Assembly (NCBI GenBank): GCA_010093995.1
Contig: ML992514.1
Coordinates: 1-64,000, forward strand
DNA: 64,000 nt
Origin: Elsinoe ampelina
Lineage: Eukaryota
Direction of reading: 5' to 3'
Part shown: in pieces, positions 6,688 to 64,000 of the stretch
Position numbering within the stretch: the stretch's first letter is position 1
How the letters are laid out: every line of letters starts with the position of its first letter
The notes under the pieces: generated by a model
The model's database searches: none
What the model saw: the letters and a program-made list of their open reading frames with translations, nothing else
Told to the model about the DNA's origin: nothing
Program-made: the position numbers and the translations under genes

Positions 6688-7756
6688 ATGGAGGGACGAG
6701 CAGCAGAAATTTGCATGGAGGATGAAGGTTGCCCATCGTCAAAGGTGAGTGGCCACAGCCTCAAACGATGGTTGAGCTCAGTGCTGATTAGACCTCAGTC
6801 ACGATCCCTCCTAGGAGGTTCTCGGTAAATACTCTCAAGAAGATCTCGCCTCTTTCGCCGACCAGCAGATGCCACCTCGCGACTTTGAGGGGCGCGGCGC
6901 AGACCTTGCCGACCTTGAGCAGCGTGTGGACAAGGCTGCAGAAAAGCGAAACGTTCGCCGAGCCTATATCGACGGGGGTGAAATACCGGGTTCGCTACCG
7001 TGGCATGGTACCAGAATGAGTCAATGACTGATATAACTACCAGAAGACGGCATCACAGCCAGTGAAGCACGCTACGACACAATGAGGGCTGGCCTCCTTA
7101 CCCAGCTTGGTCTACCTACCACAATCGAATCCGACCTTGCGACCAGCAACGCCTCTGTCGACGCACTTCAGCAGCAAAAGGAGGCCTTAGAGGAGGAAAG
7201 AAACAATGCGTTGACCGAGATCAAGCGGCTACTCAAAGTCGAGCGTGAATTGAAAGAAGGTGTCAAAACAGCCAAGAACGCCGCTGGTCAAGCTGAAGCG
7301 AACATGAAGGAGGCCAACAAATACCGTATGCAGACCGAACAAAGCGTGGAAAAGCTGACCAAAGAGAGGGACGATGCTATCAATGCGAAAGATGCAGCTT
7401 TGGACCAGGTGAGGGACCTAAGAAGAGAAAAGGACGAGCTTTCGGGCAAACTGAGCCAACGCCAAAGCGAACTCAACAGAGCGCTGAACCATCGCCCTCT
7501 ATCGGACCCTCAACCCTACCAGAGTCCTCCCGGTGTACTCGCCATGAGGCGAGAGCGTGTGAGCGACGCGCCAAGACCAGTCCACTCGCAGATCGCAGAT
7601 CTCCGTCGCAAGCTCGACGCTCGGAGAGCGGACACTGCCGCGGCGGGTACAGGTGGCGGAGGTGGGGGCGGAGCTGCTGGTGGAGTTGCCGGTGGAGTTG
7701 CTAGCGCAGTTGCTGGTGGAGTTGCCGGCGGGGCTACTGGCAGAGCTACTAGCTGA
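6688..7756 (+). CDS. Hypothetical coiled-coil protein with Gly/Ala-rich tail; possibly pseudogenised; start uncertain
   Basis: ORF 7082-7756 extends upstream through putative introns 6745-6814 and 6990-7043. The Gly/Ala codon repeat continues in frame past the TGA at 7754-7756. Confidence 0.45.
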
Positions 7757-8200
7757 GCTGCTAGTGGAGCTGCTGGCGGAGGTGTTGGTGGAGGTGTTGG
7801 CGCAGGCGCTGGTAGGATCGCTGGCGAAAGGACTGGGGGAGATACGGCAAGACATGTCGCAGATGCAGCAGAGCCTCGTGCTGGATGGGGTAATGAGCAC
7901 CAAGCTAGCGATTGGCGTGGGCTGGATGCTGGCAAGAGGGTGGGCGAAAGGCATGACTGAGTCAGGAGGGTCAATGCAGGCGCAATTTTGTACGGAGGGA
8001 AGGGTAGACGTGGTGGGGACAAGCTGGTAGACGTAGTGGGAAAGGAGCTAGGGAGCACACTGGCGTAGATGATGGTCTTGGTGCTGTAATCGTTTCTCCG
8101 CTACTTGCAGGAGGTTCAACATTTTGCTCTACCCGATGACTAGTATGGTGTCCTTCACGGTGGTCGTGTTGTTAATCCTCGCGTATGTGAGCCCGGGACC

Positions 8201-8435
8201 AAGCGTGCAGCGTTCGCTGGTAGTATTTGTGACAGCTCTAGCACCGGAAGGGCAATTCGTTAGGGCAAAAAGGTGAGTGTCTGAGTAAGGCCGTCTAGGA
8301 GTAAGTGCGTAGCGTTTGCTGGTAGTATCTGTGACAGTCCCAGCACCGATGTGGCAAGGCGGCAAGAAAGGTGGATGTCTAGGTAGGATCGTGTAGGAAT
8401 AAGTGCGTGGCGTTTGCAGCACTAGAAGGGCAAGG
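8201..8435. repeat. Degenerate direct repeats with about 100-bp period
   Basis: AAGCGTGCAGCGTTCGCTGGTAGTATTTGTGACAGCTCTAGCACCG (8201), AAGTGCGTAGCGTTTGCTGGTAGTATCTGTGACAGTCCCAGCACCG (8303) and a partial copy at 8401. Confidence 0.7.
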
Positions 8436-8762
8436 TGTTTGGGCAAGAGAGAAATCCGGTGTCCAAATCATGATCCATGGGACTGTTGTTCAAGCATCAC
8501 CGCACTTTGAGCTCGAATCCCAGCTTACCAAGTACCCTGTACGCACATAATGCAGCGATTGAGAAATGCAGTCCAGAGGTCGAATGCTTTTTGAAAGGCA
8601 GCTGCTGACAAGAAGAGCCTCCCACGTCACCTTAGTGTAGATTTATCTGCAACCGTTATGTCCGTAGAGATCACGTCGACGACTTCTACAAAAAGGTAGA
8701 CGAATTCGGCTCCATAGACATAGGAGAGACCAGGGTAGAGCCTCCAACAACACTAGACGAGC

Positions 8763-8767
8763 AAAAA
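8763..8767 (-). terminator. RNA polymerase III terminator (T5) of the tRNA gene
   Basis: TTTGCTTTTT immediately 3' of the tRNA on the minus strand. Confidence 0.8.
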
Positions 8768-8772
8768 GCAAA

Positions 8773-8911
8773 TTCCGATGCGGGGAATTGAACCCCGGCC
8801 TTGTCGGTGCTTTCTCATGTGAGAATTGAGAGCGACAAACTTTGAACAGTTAGAGAGTGCTTCAATCAGCGTCAAGGGTTAACCTACTCCTAGCCACTAG
8901 ACCACATCGGA
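8773..8911 (-). tRNA. tRNA-Glu(CTC) with a canonical intron (8808-8826) and a 48-nt GT-AG insert (8840-8887)
   Basis: Spliced sequence TCCGATGTGGTCTAGTGGCTAGGA|TTTGTCGCTCTCA|CCGACAAGGCCGGGGTTCAATTCCCCGCATCGGAA. Acceptor stem TCCGATG/CATCGGA, D stem GTCT/GGAT, anticodon stem TGTCG/CGACA, T stem CGGGG/CCCCG; intact A and B boxes. Confidence 0.93.
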
Positions 8912-9959
8912 CAATGTTTGAGTTCAACACATGCAAGAGAAATATATATAGCAGCACGTTGATAGTTCCGAGAATCTTGGGCCTGGTGGGACTATCCATC
9001 CCGGGCCGCGGGTATGAGGGATCACTCCTAGCAGAGGACCTCGCAGCGTGCTTATCCTCTTTCTATGACAGAATCTCAGATCCCCAGGATGTCGAGCATA
9101 CCGGTGGAGTGGATGGTGTCGAGTATTGTTCCACATGCGGTATGGCAAATTCGCGGTCCAGGTGTTTCATTGTACAGGGGAACATGTGCAGGGCACCAAT
9201 GCCCCTCGGAGCGAGAACAAGGATAAGTTACGAGAGAGACTTACTGCAATACTGGTTACCAGTCAAGATGGCGCAGAGACGAAGGCAGCATGAAAGCTGG
9301 TGCGAGGTGAGGTCGTGGACCAGTCTTGGCGCACATTCTCCATTTCATTGGGGCCGTCTTCCTCTTCAGACCTTTACCACATTGCCCTAATTCTGCCTAG
9401 AGATCATCGCAGATTTTACTAGAATGGATGTCTATTGCTGCATATATCTCGCACATGACAGGCGCAATCTTGCTCGAAGGCCACGTCGAACCGTCATGCT
9501 CTACATTTATACTATCATGTCCATCTGGTAGCGGACTCACTCCAACACGTCGACACGTCGGGCCTCAGGGCATATTAGCAGCGACTCTGACACGATGCCT
9601 CTGGACGCTCGTACTGTATGCCTTACAGTAGCAGGCCATCTTGACCAACCGCGCTAGGCATCTCCGGTGACAGGTCGATCATGACGGCACAGCAATCTCG
9701 GAGTTCTACGAGATGCAATTCCACAGCCGTGGCGCGGTAGGTGAAGCGTGAACCATTGGGGAAGGAATTTTCTACAGAGCCATTTCGGGAGGTGCACTGA
9801 CTGCTGAGGCTCTAATGGTGCGACGCCACCAAATTGCACCCGCAGCTTACCGCGAAACACGAGCTCGGCTATAACCTATAACAAAGGGCATATTTCTAAA
9901 CAAAACTACAGACACATCCTACAGAGAAGAAACTCGCATTCTATCACAATAACGCCAAC

Positions 9960-10796
9960 ATGTCTAGCACACGTATGTCATTACCAACCGAGAACTGCTT
10001 CGACAAGCTCTTCCCATGCAGCACTCTACTATCATCCATACCGACTCCAACGGCCACGGCAGCATGCAACGTCCCGAACCCAATCCTGAAGCCATTCAAT
10101 GGTGAACTACCAGGCTACCAATGGCCCATCGCCAAATCAATCAAAGGCTTCGTCTGCATCACACCTCCCAGAGGCGACTACTCCTCTTCATCGCGACTGA
10201 AGAACTGCTGTTCCAAACCGCTCATTAGTGTCACCAACACTACAAAGCCTGACGACATCAGCTACCCAGCAACCTGCGTCAGCTGGTGTCTCGTCAACGC
10301 CACCTCTGCTCTGCCCCCGGTACCCAAAGACAACGAGTTCCCTGCCGACGACCTCTTCAAATGTATGAACCCGGACCCAGCAGACTGGAAGATGGAGAAC
10401 GGCTATGTCTATTCGGACCAGGACTCGGAGCTGCTTTGCGACTGGGTAAATGATCCCAAGGGCAAGGAGGAATGGCAGTCCAAGTACGACGAACGACTCG
10501 ACCTTCTCCGGCAAGCGGACGAGACGATGAGCGGCAAGTGGATCAAACCGACCGACGCCTCGAGTTTGACAAACTCATCTTCTTCCGACAACAGTACAAC
10601 ATCAACGACAGAAACATGGAGCTCAAGACTGCCCTTTGCAACGGCGCCGCTGGACGCGACCGGGTCTGTATTTGCGAGCACCACGAGAACGGCGGCGGCT
10701 GGAAGCCCGACAGGCGCAGCGAGCAGGTCTGTGAGTGCAGGCGCATTAATGGTCGTGCTTCCACTGGTGTTCTCGGCCATGGTGTTGTCATTATAA
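9960..10796 (+). CDS. Cys-rich, Ser/Thr-rich protein with C-terminal GPI-anchor-like signal
   Basis: 278-aa ORF with several Cys, an S/T stalk and hydrophobic tail GAASRSVSAGALMVVLPLVFSAMVLSL. No clear N-terminal signal peptide. Confidence 0.75.
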   Translation: MSSTRMSLPTENCFDKLFPCSTLLSSIPTPTATAACNVPNPILKPFNGELPGYQWPIAKSIKGFVCITPPRGDYSSSSRLKNCCSKPLISVTNTTKPDDISYPATCVSWCLVNATSALPPVPKDNEFPADDLFKCMNPDPADWKMENGYVYSDQDSELLCDWVNDPKGKEEWQSKYDERLDLLRQADETMSGKWIKPTDASSLTNSSSSDNSTTSTTETWSSRLPFATAPLDATGSVFASTTRTAAAGSPTGAASRSVSAGALMVVLPLVFSAMVLSL

Positions 10797-10967
10797 AGCC
10801 ACGATATTCTGGCGATCATTCAAAAGCGATATCATGTATTTATGAGTACACAAAAATGTATAATATCAACAGACTCCGCCTTGGAATCAACGCCATACCG
10901 TCCGATAGCAATGATACCACGACCACGGAGCTCAACGCCACTACAAGCTCCCCAAGCACTCCAGCCC

Positions 10968-11460
10968 TTAGTTCTTGCAATACCCCTTCAGCTTAGCCTT
11001 CGTGCTCTCCCCACGGCACTGCGCATTCCACGAATCCCCATCAATCCCCATCGACGCCGAGTGGCACGGATCGCCTTTGACGCCCGGCCAATCCGGGGCT
11101 TTGTTGCCGTCAACAGCACCTGTAGACGTCAGTCAGGAATATTCCCTCCTTATATCCCAGGGTATCCTCACAGTCTTTGCACGGCCTGCTGGTCTTGTAC
11201 TTATCACACGCCCTCTTGGTGGCTTCGGGCCAGATGGTCCAGTCGTAGGTACCCTCCTGAGGATCATTAGTGGCTGGGGAAGCCGGTAGGGAAGGGCAGC
11301 ATACCTCGTACTCGGCGACTGCACACCAACAGTGGCCGTGATGAGCGGCTGTGACCATGCCGAGGCGTCCGAATCACGGTGAGTATGCTGGATGATGGAC
11401 GGTTGGGGGGGGCAAGGGACACGGCATGAGGGCAGCGAAGAGGGTGGTGGACAACTTCAT
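10968..11460 (-). CDS. Small secreted Cys-rich effector candidate (KP6/AvrLm6-like motif pattern), 4 exons; first intron lacks canonical splice sites
   Basis: MKLSTTLFAAL..GMVTAAHHGHCWCAVAEYE|EGTYDWTIWPEATKRACDKYKTSRPCKD|CAVDGNKAPDWPGVKGDPCHSASMGIDGDSWNAQCRGESTKAKLKGYCKN*. Introns 2 (GTATGC..CTAAT..CAG) and 3 (GTGAGG..CTGAC..CAG) are canonical. Confidence 0.7.
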
Positions 11461-11821
11461 TTTGGCGGTGATGAGTGGTTCGAGACGATCTGTGATGAAA
11501 CAAGTAGACCTGATGTGTTTGAGGCGATTGGTGGTGGTCATTTTCGAGAGGATACTCACGTCTACTTACAGCTTTGCTCGCCTCATTTGTCTCCATCTGG
11601 ACAATGGCACGTATTTCTAAGTCAAATTCCAGAATGAGGGCAGCAACAAGAATTGATGCTGTATAGTTGGTAGGGCATAAACTTCGAGACGCAGAGCCGC
11701 AGATTTGACCATCCCGTCCCTGGTTCACTGTGCTATATAAAGCACGTTCCCCATGTCTCACGACGGGTCGGACATTTTACACCCTCTTCGACCCAGACTG
11801 CTGTCTCTACCGATGGAACTA

Positions 11822-12141
11822 CAGTCAAAGTTGACTATAGTGATATACTGTACAGTGATATGCTGGCTGTAGTGATAAAAATCTCTAGACAGTCCGGATT
11901 TTGGTGCTTATAGTGATAAAGCTAGCTGTAATAATAGTGATACGTGTTTAGCTTTCTAGTATAGAGGCCTAGGCGTTTCTTGCCAAGATCGCTGTCAAAA
12001 CCTTATTTTGCCATTAGACTAAGCCTAAAACGGCAATTTAGGGCTCACGAAAGCCGCCAAGGCTCCTAGATATAGTGATAATCTGGTTATAGTGATAAAA
12101 AGGTGTCAGACAAAAGGCATCACTATAGCCAGCTTTGACTG
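11822..12141. mobile_element. 320-bp MITE of Tc1/mariner type
   Basis: TIRs CAGTCAAAGTTGACTATAGTGAT / ATCACTATAGCCAGCTTTGACTG (2 transition mismatches). TA target duplication at 11820-11821 and 12142-12143. Repeated internal TAGTGATA motif; no ORF. Confidence 0.92.
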
Positions 12142-20915: not shown

Positions 20916-21845
20916 ATGGCATCAACACTTGTAAGCTTGCCGGATGTTGAGAGGCTGAGCCCTCGAGTAATTCGCATACTGGGTGGCAACCCTGGCAAGG
21001 TAAGCCCACCACTCTACGGTAATACGATAAAGCTAATACTCCAAGTACACATTACAAGGTACCACGACCCAAGTGCATCTTAGTCCCCGTCTGACACCCC
21101 AGGCACAAATACCTACCTAGTCGGCACCGGTCCCTCCCGTCTCCTCATCGACACAGCAGAAGGCAAACCCGCCTGGCTCACCTCTCTCAAACAAGTCCTC
21201 TCCTCGGAAAACGCCACCATCTCCCAAACCCTCATCACCCACTGGCACCCGGACCACGTAGGCGGCATCCCCGACGTCCTATCCCTGTTCCCCTCCTGCC
21301 CCATCCACAAACACCAACCCCGCGTCGGCGAGCTCAACATTGCCCACAACCAAACCTTCACCACACCCGGCGCCACCCTCCGCGCCTTCCACTCCCCAGG
21401 CCACACAGTCGACCACATGGCGCTGATCCTCGAGGAAGAAGACGCCATGTTCACCGGCGACAACGTGTTGGGCCAAGGCACGGCTGTCTTCAAGGACCTG
21501 AAGACGTACATGGATAGTCTGGAGAAGATGGGCGGGGCGTTTGGCGGACGGGCGTATCCGGGGCATGGGCCGGTGTTGGAGGATGGGAAGGGGAAGGTGA
21601 GGGAGTATATCCGGCACAGGAGGGAGAGGGAGGAACAGATCGTGGGGGTCATGAAGGGGGGGAGTGAGGGGAAGGAGGGCTGGGGGAGTATGGAGTTGGT
21701 GAAGGTGGTGTATAAGGATTACCCGGAGCATTTGCATGCGCCGGCGGAGGGGAGTGTGGTGCAGGTTTTGAAGAAGTTGGAGGTGGAGGGGAGGGCGAGG
21801 GTGGTGGATGGAGTGTGGAGTTTGGTTGATAGGGAGAAGCTATAG
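20916..21845 (+). CDS. LACTB2-type metallo-beta-lactamase; introns 21000-21045 and 21059-21102 flank a 13-nt micro-exon
   Basis: RVIRILGGNPGK|YTLQ|GTNTYLVG, THWHPDHVGG, PGHTVDH, FTGDNVLG, YPGHG. Confidence 0.92.
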
Positions 21846-34839: not shown

Positions 34840-34962
34840 CACGGCTGCAGTGCCTTTCTAACGCAAATTTCTCTTGCCTTTTACCAGAGGAATCCGGGAC
34901 GGCCTGCAAACCGCCAGTATTCAATATTTGGACGAAACTGAAAAGTTGTTCGCAACTTTTTT
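34840..34962 (+). ncRNA. U5 spliceosomal snRNA (ends approximate)
   Basis: Invariant loop I GCCTTTTAC (34876-34884) closed by TTTCTCT/AGAGGAA and followed by CCG. Outer stem GCAG-GCC/GGC-CTGC. Sm-like site AATATTTGG (34923-34931). 3' hairpin AAAAGTTG-TTCG-CAACTTTT. TATATAA at 34812-34818. Confidence 0.88.
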
Positions 34963-62363: not shown

Positions 62364-64000
62364 TTAAATCCTGCTCTCCAAAGCCCTTCCATCCCTCAAC
62401 GCCACCAACTTGTCCACCGCCTCCTTCAAGGGCACCAATTCCCCCATCTTTTGTGTCTCGGGAAGATCTCTGTTCCTGATGTTTACCGTCCTCGTCTCTG
62501 ACTCCTTTGCTCCAAGCACGAAAATGAAGTTATACTGCGCCAATTGACCCGTGCGAATCTTCTTCTGCATTGTGTTGCCCGTGATATCCACGTCTGCGTG
62601 AAGCCCCTGCTCACGCAGGAGACCCTGAACCTCGAGCACGTAGGGGTTGACGGCCGGCATGACCGGTACGATGAGGACTTGGCGAGGAGAGAGCCAGAAG
62701 GGCCATTTGCCGGCGAAGTGCTCTGTAAGGATGGCGATGAAGCGTTCAAAGGAGCCGTAAATGGCACGATGAATCATGACCGGGCGAGCGCAGCCAGGGG
62801 TGAGGGCGCGACGGTAGTGGGTGTTATCTTTGAGCTCTTTAGGGTCTTTCGATTCCTCGGGAGCGGCGGCCGCGTCTGGTGCAATGGTAGAGGCAGCGGG
62901 ATCTTTCTTCTCGACGGCAGGGGATGTAGACATGACTTGTGCGCTGCCTTCTCGACCTTCGACACCTGACTCTGCTGCTCGGTATTCGAGGTTGAATTGT
63001 TGTGGTAGTTGGAAATCGAGCTGGATTGTGGCGCATTGAAACTCTCGCTTGAGAGCGTCCGAGATGGTGATGTCGATCTTTGGGCCGTAGAAGGCGCCGT
63101 CGCCTGGATTAAGCTCCCATTTGGAGCCACCCTCTGACGTGAACTGGTCGAGAGCTTTGGTGAGCTGAGCTTCTGCTTTGTCCCACGTGGCAATGTCACC
63201 AAGATGTCCCTCTGGTCGCGTGGAAAGCTTCATCTTGAAGGTGAAACCGAAACGACCATACACGGCACGAAGGAAGTCGAAGAGACCGAGGATTTCTTGT
63301 TCGACCTGGAGAATGTTAGATCATGGACGTGACTGGACGATCAGCCATTCACCGACCTGCTCTTCCGTGCAGAAGATATGCGTGTCGTCTTGCTGAAATC
63401 TTCGTACTCTCGTCAATCCCGTCAGAGCGCCTGATGCTTCGTTTCTGTGCAGTACGCCAAAGTCCGCGATGCGCATTGGTAGCTCACGGTAACTCCTCTC
63501 TCTGTGAGCGAAGAGAAGACAATGGCCAGGACAATTCATAGGTTTGAGCGCCCATTGGTCCTTCTCCACCTCGAAAGTAAACATATCATCCTTGTAATGT
63601 TGCCAGTGACCAGATTGTTTCCAGAGCGCAGAGTTGTACATGTTTGGTGACATGACTTCTTGGTACCCACGTCTCCAGTACTCGCCTCTCAAGAAGGCTT
63701 GCAGGGCATTGTAGATAATCATACCATGAGGAAGGAAGAAACTTGATCCAGGCGACATTTGATGAAAGAAAAACAGCTCTTGCTCTTGACCAATCTTGCG
63801 GTGATCTCTCTTCGCTGCCTCCTCGAGGTAGACCTTGTGCTCCTCCATCTGCTTCTTGTCTGGGAACGAAACACCGTAGATGCGCTGAAGAGAGTCGTTG
63901 GCAGCATCGCCCAGAAAGTAGGATGAAGAATTCTTCATAACCGCGAAGGCCTTGATTCGTCCAGTATGTGGCACATGTGGTCCTCTGCAGAGATCAATGA
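62364..64000 (-). CDS. THS1: Threonyl-tRNA synthetase (5' part outside window); intron 63306-63356
   Basis: [72 protein letters not shown]. Confidence 0.97.

What the first reader, a model, noticed from the sequence alone, without database searches (positions are those of the whole stretch)
8840..8887. Apparent spliceosomal (GT-AG) intron inside a tRNA-Glu gene
Seen: on the minus strand a 48-nt insert, GTAGGTTAACCCTTGACGCTGATTGAAGCACTCTCTAACTGTTCAAAG, sits between tRNA positions 24 and 25 (3' strand of the D stem). It has a fungal 5' splice site (GTAGGT), a branch motif (TCTAAC) ending 9 nt before the 3' end, and an AAG acceptor. Its size matches mRNA introns in this window (44-55 nt). The same TCTAAC branch occurs in the ThrRS intron, and AAG acceptors occur in the LACTB2, EFM5 and MDM35 introns. 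Exact GT..AG removal restores a fully paired cloverleaf. There is no target-site duplication and no T4 run that would stop Pol III. A box, B box, all stems and the terminator are intact, which argues against a pseudogene. Established: eukaryotic tRNA introns are normally cut by the TSEN/Sen endonuclease at 37/38. Spliceosomal introns are known in some fungal non-mRNA genes (U6 snRNA of S. pombe and Rhodotorula, rRNA of lichen ascomycetes). I know of no described case in tRNA but cannot search the literature. Inference: the spliceosome processes a pre-tRNA here.
Basis: partly seen in the sequence, partly recalled or inferred. Interest (0 to 1): 0.93.

Follow-up and report, generated by a model that had tools for sequence, protein, structure and literature searches.

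The report
Spliceosome-type intron inside a tRNA gene
A glutamate tRNA gene of an Elsinoe-like fungus carries, besides its normal tRNA intron, a 48-base insert with every hallmark of a messenger-RNA intron; I found no description of this for tRNA genes, but it is not yet shown that the cell splices it out.

Summary
On the minus strand, 8911..8773 is a nuclear tRNA-Glu(CUC) gene with a normal 19-nt intron at 37/38. It also has a 48-nt insert (8887..8840) exactly between positions 24 and 25. Removing the insert in silico gives a perfect 72-nt cloverleaf, identical to the tRNA encoded by 8 of 23 environmental fungal loci.

The insert has unambiguous GT..AG ends, a GTAGGT donor and a CTAAC branch whose A lies 10 nt from the 3' end. 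That is the modal distance in this genome (9-11 nt in 14 of 15 curated introns). The first AG after the branch is the acceptor. Random 48-mers meet these criteria about 3-5 times in 100,000. There is no convincing bulge-helix-bulge, no target-site duplication and no second copy in the window.

A second, unrelated 48-nt GT..AG insert sits in the T arm of another fungal tRNA-Glu(CUC) gene (metagenome locus L001). The phenomenon therefore recurs.

Splicing itself is not shown. The one RNA-run contig that crosses the site retains the insert, and no spliced joint was seen. Best reading: a spliceosomal-type intron transposed into a Pol III gene. Odds are roughly even between at least partial spliceosomal removal and a freshly disabled gene copy. 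No paper describing this was found.

The parts
8773..8911 (-). Whole tRNA-Glu(CUC) gene, 139 nt (72 nt of exon + 48-nt insert + 19-nt canonical intron)
   Evidence: Rfam RF00005 31.5 bits, full model; ARAGORN after removal of the insert
8888..8911 (-). Exon part 1, tRNA positions 1-24 (acceptor 5' strand, D stem 5' strand, D loop, most of D stem 3' strand). The A box lies at about 8893-8904.
   Evidence: The same 24-mer occurs in 23 metagenome tRNA-Glu loci. A-box placement rests on the recalled consensus.
8840..8887 (-). 48-nt spliceosomal-type insert between tRNA positions 24 and 25
   Evidence: Retained with 0 differences in contigs of X1 and X3.
8882..8887 (-). Donor site GTAGGT
   Evidence: Direct reading. 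Fits GTNNGY, as do 13 of 15 curated introns.
8849..8853 (-). Branch motif CTAAC. The branch A is at 8850, 10 nt from the 3' end of the insert.
   Evidence: the A lies 9-11 nt from the end in 14 of 15 curated introns
8840..8842 (-). Acceptor AAG, the first AG downstream of the branch
   Evidence: Direct reading. An AAG acceptor is also seen in candidate introns 21000-21045(+) and 12002-12048(-).
8827..8839 (-). Exon part 2, tRNA positions 25-37 (last D-stem base, anticodon stem 5' strand, anticodon CTC)
   Evidence: ARAGORN cloverleaf
8808..8826 (-). Canonical 19-nt tRNA intron at 37/38, with a stretch complementary to the anticodon region
   Evidence: ARAGORN; direct reading
8773..8807 (-). 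3' exon, positions 38-73. The B box lies at about 8784-8794.
   Evidence: Exons are identical to those of 8 of 23 metagenome loci. B-box placement rests on the recalled consensus.
8763..8767 (-). T5 run, 6 nt after the gene: a Pol III terminator-like site
8942..8950 (-). TATATATAT element 31-39 nt upstream of the tRNA start

Best explanation
The 48 nt are a U2-type (GT-AG) spliceosomal intron that was transposed into one copy of the nuclear tRNA-Glu(CUC) gene.

Origin (inferred). The likeliest route is spliceosome-mediated intron transposition. An excised intron is reverse-spliced into the abundant pre-tRNA and copied back into DNA, or it is reverse-spliced into the single-stranded DNA of an R-loop at this heavily transcribed gene. 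This places the intron in sense orientation and leaves no target-site duplication.

The gene (shown by sequence). It keeps its A box, B box, upstream TATA-like element and T5 terminator, so Pol III should still transcribe it.

Processing (inferred). The primary transcript cannot fold a D arm. Short fungal introns are recognised across the intron itself. The spliceosome would therefore cut out the 48 nt from this Pol III transcript, as it does for the intron of the fission-yeast U6 gene. That would leave an ordinary pre-tRNA. The tRNA endonuclease would then remove its 19-nt intron, and the ends would be trimmed.

Shown: the anatomy, the statistical intron-likeness, the exact restoration of a conserved tRNA, and recurrence in a second fungus.
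Inferred: the origin, Pol III transcription, and above all the splicing step itself. I put splicing at about even odds and, if it happens, expect it to be partial rather than efficient.
For: (1) Exact removal gives a perfect tRNA-Glu(ctc) with a canonical intron. Its 72-nt exons are identical to those of 8 of 23 environmental loci.
(2) The ends are unambiguously GT..AG. The donor is GTAGGT. The CTAAC branch A is 10 nt from the end, against 9-11 nt in 14 of 15 curated introns. The length of 48 nt falls within 42-51 nt. The first AG after the branch is the acceptor.
(3) Random expectation is 4 of 127,904 shuffled 48-mers. Only 45 segments in the whole window (both strands) meet the stricter scan, and these include 12 of my 15 curated introns.
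(4) Recurrence. 1 of 23 loci that share the 5' exon (L001) has another 48-nt GT..AG insert, with a GTTAGT donor, a CTGAC branch A 11 nt from the end and a TAG acceptor. It lies at T-arm position 53/54. ARAGORN finds 0 genes with the insert and tRNA-Glu(ctc) plus a 19-nt intron without it.
(5) No Watson-Crick bulge-helix-bulge can be drawn.
(6) Precedent. The sole U6 gene of S. pombe, a Pol III gene, has an intron removed by the spliceosome. Other fungal U6 genes carry up to four introns that are unrelated in sequence (PMC5855946, section 14).
(7) Reverse splicing into R-loop DNA has been proposed for short fungal and algal introners (PMC11146597, passage).
(8) The insert is present in two samples from two studies.
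Against: - The only contig of an RNA-containing run that bridges the site (X3, 8446-8902, depth 6) retains both the 48-nt insert and the 19-nt intron. In the same run, five mRNA introns of the neighbouring carboxypeptidase gene appear only in spliced form.
- No joint at 8839/8888 appeared in any of the 4 laid runs. The weight of these two points is limited. Contigs carry no strand, they drop minor forms, X3 is labelled RNA only by guess and may hold DNA, and short pre-tRNAs are lost from ordinary libraries.
- AAG is an uncommon acceptor here: 0 of 15 curated introns have it.
- tRNA-Glu is a multi-copy family, so nothing forces this copy to work.
- 0 of 23 metagenome loci carry an insert at 24/25, and no orthologous locus could be examined, so conservation is untested.
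- In animal cells Pol III transcripts are not spliced (recalled, not checked here).
Confidence: 0.45

Rival explanations
1. Same insert and same origin, but it is never productively removed. The transposed intron has disabled this gene copy. The result is a young pseudogene whose transcripts are misfolded and degraded, and other tRNA-Glu(CUC) copies supply the cell.
For: - The bridging X3 contig retains the insert, and no spliced joint appeared in 4 of 4 runs.
- The family is multi-copy. 23 metagenome loci share the same 5' exon, and 8 of 23 encode the identical tRNA.
- Intact exons and signals are what a recent event would look like.
- The L001 insert splits the B box region (direct reading). 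That looks more like damage than design.
- 0 of 23 loci share the 24/25 insert.
Against: - Short fungal introns are defined across the intron, and a Pol III transcript (S. pombe U6) is known to be spliced. Complete failure to splice a consensus intron would itself need explaining.
- There is no substitution in 72 nt of exon, in the splice signals or in the terminator.
- Two independent cases both have complete signals.
Confidence: 0.42
2. A non-canonical tRNA intron removed by the tRNA splicing endonuclease through a bulge-helix-bulge-like fold, as in Archaea or the red alga Cyanidioschyzon merolae.
For: Ectopic and multiple tRNA introns exist in a eukaryotic nucleus (C. merolae; PMC3728597, abstract start in the listing).
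Against: - Around the two cut sites only 4-bp helices made mostly of G-U pairs can be drawn, with bulges of 0-1 nt.
- The minimum-energy fold of the 139-nt precursor shows no such motif, and its energy is unremarkable (z -1.43).
- Fungal endonuclease measures from the mature domain to 37/38 (established knowledge, recalled).
- The full set of spliceosomal signals would be an unexplained coincidence.
Confidence: 0.03
3. An unrelated insertion (filler DNA from break repair, a transposon footprint or a small duplication) that only mimics an intron by chance.
For: - There is no second copy of the insert in the window.
- It shows no similarity to L001's insert beyond what introns share: 10 of 105 intron pairs score at least as high.
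Against: - The chance of the full signal set is about 3e-5 per 48-mer (4 of 127,904 shuffled), and it occurred twice independently.
- There is no target-site duplication and there are no inverted ends (direct reading).
Confidence: 0.05
4. The GT..AG intron belongs to an overlapping Pol II transcript (a UTR or non-coding RNA) that happens to run through the tRNA gene.
For: The X3 contig 8446-8902 extends 330 nt beyond the Pol III terminator-like T5 run, so some longer RNA, or DNA, covers the gene.
Against: - That contig is unspliced at the insert.
- An intron of another transcript would have no reason to restore a perfect cloverleaf to the base.
Confidence: 0.04

Closest known systems
mRNA-type introns in fungal U6 snRNA genes (S. 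pombe, Rhodotorula and many other fungi; PMC5855946 section 14, read)
   Same: - A Pol III-transcribed, structured non-coding RNA gene is interrupted by a short intron with canonical donor, branch and acceptor and no other conserved sequence.
- Many of these insertions are lineage-specific.
- Origin by reverse splicing plus reverse transcription has been proposed.
- In S. pombe the intron is removed by the spliceosome.
   Different: - U6 sits in the catalytic centre of the spliceosome, which explains both how it gets hit and how it gets spliced. A tRNA has no known contact with the spliceosome.
- The host here already carries an intron of a different, protein-spliced kind.
- The review's list of hosts (U6, U2, U5, U1, rRNA) does not include tRNA.
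Spliceosomal introns in rDNA of ascomycetes (Bhattacharya et al. 2000; seen only as cited in PMC5855946)
   Same: Spliceosomal-type introns lie in genes not transcribed by Pol II, in ascomycete fungi.
   Different: - The genes are Pol I genes.
- The paper itself was not read here.
Introner-like elements of Dothideomycetes (PMC3609843 and PMC4457414; abstract starts in the listing)
   Same: - They occur in the same fungal class as the window's closest named relatives (Elsinoe).
- They are mobile spliceosomal introns that create new intron positions.
- They degrade until they look like regular introns.
   Different: - Those elements are described as multi-copy, longer than regular introns and stably folded.
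- This insert is 48 nt and has no second copy in the 64-kb window.
- It folds more weakly than its shuffles (-4.2 against a mean of -7.1 kcal/mol).
- Family membership cannot be tested without the genome.
Ectopic and multiple tRNA introns of Cyanidioschyzon merolae and Archaea (PMC3728597, PMC4033280, PMC4090602; abstract starts in the listings)
   Same: A tRNA gene has more than one intron, one of them in the D arm region, outside 37/38.
   Different: - Those introns are cut by the tRNA endonuclease at bulge-helix-bulge motifs.
- This one lacks the motif and carries spliceosomal signals instead.
Canonical eukaryotic tRNA intron at 37/38
   Same: The same gene has one (8808-8826). It is 19 nt long and has a stretch complementary to the anticodon region.
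   Different: The 48-nt insert is at 24/25. tRNAscan-SE 2.0 states that eukaryotic tRNA genes are limited to one intron, and it searches for non-canonical introns only in archaeal mode (PMC8450103, passages).

Membership tests
U2-type (GT-AG) spliceosomal intron | GT at the 5' end and AG at the 3' end, with a donor hexamer fitting the organism's own introns | tested here: met
   GTAGGT ... AAG with unambiguous boundaries. GTNNGY occurs in 13 of 15 curated introns.
U2-type (GT-AG) spliceosomal intron | Branch motif CTRAY at the organism's usual distance from the acceptor, with the first AG downstream used | tested here: met
   The CTAAC branch A is 10 nt from the end, against 9-11 nt in 14 of 15 curated introns. 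The first AG after it is the boundary.
U2-type (GT-AG) spliceosomal intron | Length within the organism's intron size range | tested here: met
   48 nt, against 42-51 nt in 15 curated introns, of which 5 are confirmed by joints in RNA contigs
U2-type (GT-AG) spliceosomal intron | Excised from RNA by the spliceosome through a lariat | tested here: inconclusive
   There is no joint at 8839/8888 in 4 of 4 runs. The one bridging contig of the RNA-containing run X3 retains the insert. Contigs cannot show minor forms, strand or lariats.
U2-type (GT-AG) spliceosomal intron | Host transcript made by Pol II | tested here: not met
   The host is a tRNA gene with A and B boxes and a T5 terminator. The U6 gene of S. 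pombe shows that this feature is not absolute.
tRNA intron cut by the tRNA splicing endonuclease | Position 37/38 (eukaryotes), or a bulge-helix-bulge at the exon-intron borders (Archaea, C. merolae) | tested here: not met
   The position is 24/25. Only G-U-rich 4-bp helices with bulges of 0-1 nt can be drawn.
Introner-like element | Many near-identical copies in the genome | tested here: inconclusive
   There is no other copy in the 64-kb window: the best other match is 11 nt. No genome is held.
Introner-like element | Longer than regular introns, with a stable predicted fold | tested here: not met
   48 nt. The minimum free energy is -4.2 kcal/mol, against a shuffle mean of -7.1 (sd 2.5).
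tRNA pseudogene | The gene as it stands in DNA cannot give a cloverleaf | tested here: met
   Default ARAGORN finds 0 genes. With introns allowed it mis-calls a tRNA-Leu(aag) with a 68-nt intron.
tRNA pseudogene | Decay of exons, internal promoter or terminator | tested here: not met
   The exons are identical to those of 8 of 23 environmental loci. A T5 run lies 6 nt after the gene.

The most novel reading that the evidence does not exclude
In some filamentous ascomycetes, nuclear tRNA genes are recurrent landing sites for mobile spliceosomal introns. At least two independent hits are seen here, at D-arm 24/25 and T-arm 53/54 of tRNA-Glu(CUC). The spliceosome really does excise these introns from Pol III pre-tRNAs. 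Such genes would then need two unrelated splicing machineries in series, and standard tRNA finders would systematically miss them.
Probability: 0.3. Interest if true: 0.92.

Novelty: new variant of a known kind. Interest (0 to 1): 0.8.

Why it matters
Textbook and software both assume that a eukaryotic nuclear tRNA gene has at most one intron, at 37/38, removed by a protein endonuclease.

If the intron is spliced, the reach of the spliceosome extends to the most abundant class of Pol III transcripts. Maturation of one RNA would then depend on two unrelated splicing systems.

If it is not spliced, the finding still matters for the old question of how new spliceosomal introns arise. A complete, sense-oriented intron with no target-site duplication, sitting in a gene where selection did not need it to be spliced, and seen twice at different sites, looks like a natural footprint of spliceosome-mediated intron transposition. 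Intron transposition into abundant or R-loop-prone transcripts would then be directly testable.

There is also a practical point. Such genes are invisible to, or mis-called by, ARAGORN and filtered Rfam scans. tRNA gene counts in fungal genomes may therefore be slightly wrong.

Tried and rejected
Sources that were not available:
- No whole genome is held for the window. The records behind the metagenome loci are not searchable. Paralogues, donor introns and orthologous loci could therefore not be examined.

Sequencing runs: no RNA holder listed. The kinds of X3 and X5 are guesses.

Laid reads:
- There is no joint at the insert in any of the 4 runs.
- X4 and X5 have no cover over the tRNA.
- By arithmetic on the depth table, X3 seems to have no cover at 8903-9376 and 11583-11805, and about 3-fold cover at 8115-8445. 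I do not use missing cover as evidence.
- Two readings of the cover ending at 8902 are speculation: a Pol III start, or a roadblock to a plus-strand transcript.

Collection scans:
- A metagenome scan for any tRNA-Glu with GT..AG at 24/25 found 0 loci.
- A scan of the prokaryote genome collection with the 24-mer found 0.
- None of the 23 metagenome loci is orthologous to the window locus. Only the tRNA parts align.

Common origin of the two inserts is rejected. 10 of 105 intron-intron pairs score at least as high as the pair. Only 23 of 2000 interior shuffles do, so the likeness is what introns share.

Bulge-helix-bulge is rejected. The precursor fold is unremarkable.

Earlier findings: look-ups by place, by sequence and by the first word set gave nothing.

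Scripts and scans that fell short:
- My first two intron-finding scripts were far too permissive (8325 and 4435 raw candidates, 180 after weak filters). I replaced them with 15 hand-picked introns. 5 are confirmed by RNA joints. The other 10 were picked by eye from the candidates for open reading frames on both sides, most of them in genes with Pfam hits. All other candidates were dropped.
- The header parsing failed and was redone.
- The sensitive whole-window Rfam scan lists 2 matches and not the tRNA.

Not in print, as far as searched. Searches found no paper on spliceosomal introns in tRNA genes. Subscription journals are not covered.

Full report
WHAT IS THERE.
On the minus strand, 8911..8773 reads as a tRNA gene broken in two places.
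- Default ARAGORN sees nothing in the whole window (0 genes).
- Rfam at gathering thresholds reports only a U5 snRNA gene (1 match).
- A sensitive Rfam scan of 8600-9100 matches the tRNA model RF00005 over its full length. The score is 31.5 bits against a gathering score of 29, E 9.6e-05. Unaligned blocks of 51 nt (D region) and 24 nt (anticodon loop) are left out.
- With introns allowed, ARAGORN mis-calls the locus as tRNA-Leu(aag) with a 68-nt intron.
- After removal of 8840-8887 by coordinates, ARAGORN returns a 72-nt tRNA-Glu(ctc) with all four stems paired and a 19-nt intron at 37/38.

The parts on the minus strand are:
- exon positions 1-24: 8911-8888
- insert: 8887-8840
- exon positions 25-37: 8839-8827
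- canonical intron: 8826-8808
- exon positions 38-73: 8807-8773

A TATATATAT element lies 31-39 nt upstream, and a T5 run begins 6 nt after the gene. The insert boundaries cannot be shifted by even one base without changing the tRNA, so GT...AG is forced and not chosen.

IS IT REAL DNA?
The source-like DNA run X1 covers the whole laid stretch in one contig. A contig of run X3, from another sample and study, covers 8446-8902 with 0 differences and no gap. The insert is not an assembly accident.

WHICH ORGANISM?
The Pfam content is fungal (for example the fungal rhodopsin domain). The window's DNA ligase is 94% and 93% identical to proteins named Elsinoe batatas and E. ampelina. Other Dothideomycetes follow at about 70-86%. 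The window is therefore from an Elsinoe-like Dothideomycete. No whole genome is held.

IS THE INSERT INTRON-LIKE BEYOND CHANCE?
I assembled 15 reference introns from the window.
- Five are confirmed by joints in RNA contigs of X3 and X5 in the carboxypeptidase gene at 12.3-14.3 kb.
- I picked the other ten by eye from the candidates, for open reading frames on both sides, most of them in genes with Pfam hits. All other candidates from two over-permissive scripts were dropped.

The 15 introns have these properties:
- They are 42-51 nt long.
- 13 of 15 begin GTNNGY.
- In 14 of 15 the A of a CTRAY motif lies 9-11 nt from the 3' end.

The insert is 48 nt and begins GTAGGT. Its CTAAC branch A is 10 nt from the end. 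It ends AAG, which is the first AG after the branch.

Only 7 of 127,904 48-mers of the window pass a looser form of this test. By the near-identical scan, these are the insert, 4 of the curated introns and 2 further intron candidates. In a shuffled window 4 of 127,904 pass. Over lengths 40-65, only 45 segments in the window qualify, and these include 12 of my 15 curated introns.

AAG acceptors are rare (0 of 15 curated) but occur in candidate introns such as 21000-21045(+), just upstream of the LACTB2-like ORF. The ThrRS intron 63306-63356(-) shares the TCTAAC branch.

WHAT IT IS NOT.
- Around the two cut sites only 4-bp helices built mostly of G-U pairs, with bulges of 0-1 nt, can be drawn. 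No Watson-Crick bulge-helix-bulge exists.
- The 139-nt precursor folds no better than shuffles (z -1.43).
- There is no target-site duplication and there are no inverted ends.
- There is no second copy in the window; the best other match is 11 nt.
- There is no stable internal fold: -4.2 kcal/mol against a shuffle mean of -7.1. It therefore does not look like the long, structured, multi-copy introner-like elements described for Dothideomycetes (abstract starts). A degenerate member cannot be excluded without the genome.

RELATED SEQUENCES.
A metagenome scan for any tRNA-Glu with a GT..AG insert at 24/25 found nothing. A second scan with the exact 24-nt 5' exon found 23 loci.
- None of the 23 loci has an insert at 24/25.
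- 22 of 23 are ordinary tRNA-Glu genes, with no intron or with one at 37/38.
- 8 of 23 encode exactly the 72-nt tRNA that the window gene would give. The window exons therefore carry no change relative to a conserved, evidently functional tRNA.
- None of the 23 loci is orthologous to the window locus; only the tRNA parts align.

The surprise is L001. This is a tRNA-Glu(CUC) gene with a 19-nt canonical intron and a second 48-nt insert after T-stem position 53, with a one-base placement ambiguity.
- It has a GTTAGT donor, a CTGAC branch A 11 nt from the end, and a TAG acceptor that is again the first AG.
- ARAGORN finds 0 genes with the insert and tRNA-Glu(ctc) plus a 19-nt intron without it.
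- The two inserts are no more alike than introns of this window are to each other. 10 of 105 intron pairs score at least as high. Against interior shuffles, 23 of 2000 do. They are independent events, not copies of one element.
- L001 is 100% identical to L013, an insert-free locus on a 250-kb contig of a sister assembly, through 400 nt of upstream flank and the 5' exon. The two then diverge inside the canonical intron and in the 3' flank. L001 is therefore either a paralogue with a duplicated upstream region or a chimeric short contig. Either way, its 3' half with the insert comes from some tRNA-Glu gene of that fungus.

RNA EVIDENCE.
No listed run is on record as RNA. However, contigs of X3 and X5 skip five GT-AG introns of the carboxypeptidase gene, so both contain spliced RNA. 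Over the tRNA, only X3 has cover. One 457-nt contig (8446-8902, depth 6) retains both the insert and the 19-nt intron and runs 330 nt past the T5 run. No run shows a joint at the insert.

This counts against efficient splicing of whatever molecule that contig represents. Its weight is limited for these reasons:
- Its strand is unknown.
- It may be antisense RNA, read-through RNA or contaminating DNA.
- Contigs drop minor isoforms.
- Ordinary libraries lose 100-170-nt pre-tRNAs.

HOW IT MOST LIKELY WORKS.
Shown: the anatomy, the statistics, the exact restoration of a conserved tRNA, and recurrence.

Inferred: a spliceosomal intron was transposed into this gene. Candidate routes are reverse splicing into the RNA followed by reverse transcription, as proposed for U6 (PMC5855946 section 14). 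The other candidate is reverse splicing into the single-stranded DNA of an R-loop, as favoured for short fungal and algal introners (PMC11146597, passage). That tRNA genes are R-loop hot spots is my recollection, not a result here. Both routes explain the sense orientation of both inserts and the lack of a target-site duplication.

The internal promoter survives, since the insert lies after the A box, so Pol III should still transcribe the gene. Tolerance of a longer distance between A and B boxes is recalled from yeast work and was not tested here. The only route from that transcript to tRNA-Glu is spliceosomal removal of the 48 nt first, which restores the D arm. Endonuclease removal of the 19 nt would follow.

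Fungal short introns are recognised across the intron, and the sole U6 gene of S. pombe (Pol III) is spliced by the spliceosome, so this route is mechanistically credible. My odds are:
- about 0.45 that at least partial splicing happens
- about 0.42 that the copy is simply a fresh casualty of intron mobility
- the small remainder for endonuclease removal, chance mimicry or an overlapping Pol II transcript

COMPARISON WITH WHAT IS KNOWN.
- The closest system is the mRNA-type intron of fungal U6 genes. It shares the polymerase, the kind of signals and the lineage-specific, sequence-unrelated insertions. U6, however, lives in the spliceosome's active site, and a tRNA does not.
- The 2018 U6 review lists U6, U2, U5, U1 and rRNA as non-coding hosts of spliceosomal introns, not tRNA. 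It calls the determinants of such insertions unclear.
- tRNAscan-SE 2.0 states that eukaryotic tRNA genes are limited to one intron and looks for non-canonical ones only in Archaea (PMC8450103, passages).
- Eight full-text searches found no report of spliceosomal introns in tRNA genes. The library lacks most subscription journals.
- An earlier, unchecked note of this scan (e1-4091646) describes an mRNA-type intron in a tRNA-Ala gene of an Ostreococcus-like alga. If sound, the phenomenon is wider than fungi.

VERDICT.
I class it as a new variant of a known kind, namely spliceosomal introns in non-mRNA genes. Interest is 0.8.

Noticed in passing
L001:133-180 (minus strand of the locus; contig JAABUK010133371.1): A second, independent 48-nt GT..AG insert (GTTAGT donor, CTGAC branch A 11 nt from the end, TAG acceptor). 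It lies in the T arm (53/54) of another fungal tRNA-Glu(CUC) gene that also has a 19-nt canonical intron. It splits the B-box region.
   Followed up: partly
L001 versus L013 (contig JAABUL010000021.1, 250 kb): The two loci are 100% identical over 400 nt upstream and the 5' exon. They then differ inside the canonical intron and completely in the 3' flank. L001 is either a paralogue with a duplicated upstream region or a chimeric short contig.
   Followed up: partly
window 34840-34950 (+): A U5 spliceosomal snRNA gene (Rfam RF00020, 56.6 bits, full length) with no intron-sized insertion in the alignment.
   Followed up: no
window 7668-7703 (+), inside ORF 7037-7756: Contigs of X4 and X5 lack 36 nt here. 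The ends are GC..TA, the gap is in frame, and it is not an intron. X1 and X3 keep the 36 nt. This looks like a repeat-length polymorphism in a coiled-coil-like gene.
   Followed up: no
window 8446-8902: A low-depth contig of the RNA-containing run X3 begins or ends 9 nt inside the tRNA 5' end and runs 330 nt beyond the T5 run. Its strand is unknown. It could be Pol III read-through, an antisense transcript stopped at the tRNA gene, or DNA.
   Followed up: partly
window 8773-8911: Standard tools miss or mis-call this gene. Default ARAGORN finds nothing. Whole-window Rfam scans at gathering threshold and at E<=0.05 do not list it, although it scores 31.5 bits in a local scan.
   Followed up: yes
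window 11464-11515 (+): A weak C/D-box snoRNA-like match (Rfam sR28, 25.1 bits, below the gathering score of 39, E 0.019), within the stretch 9377-11582 covered by an X3 contig downstream of ORF 9900-10796. It is probably chance.
   Followed up: no
L005, L007, L010, L014, L015, L018, L023, L012: The eight environmental loci with exons identical to the window tRNA have canonical introns of 19-28 nt. These share their first bases and their last three bases with each other but not with the window's 19-nt intron.
   Followed up: no
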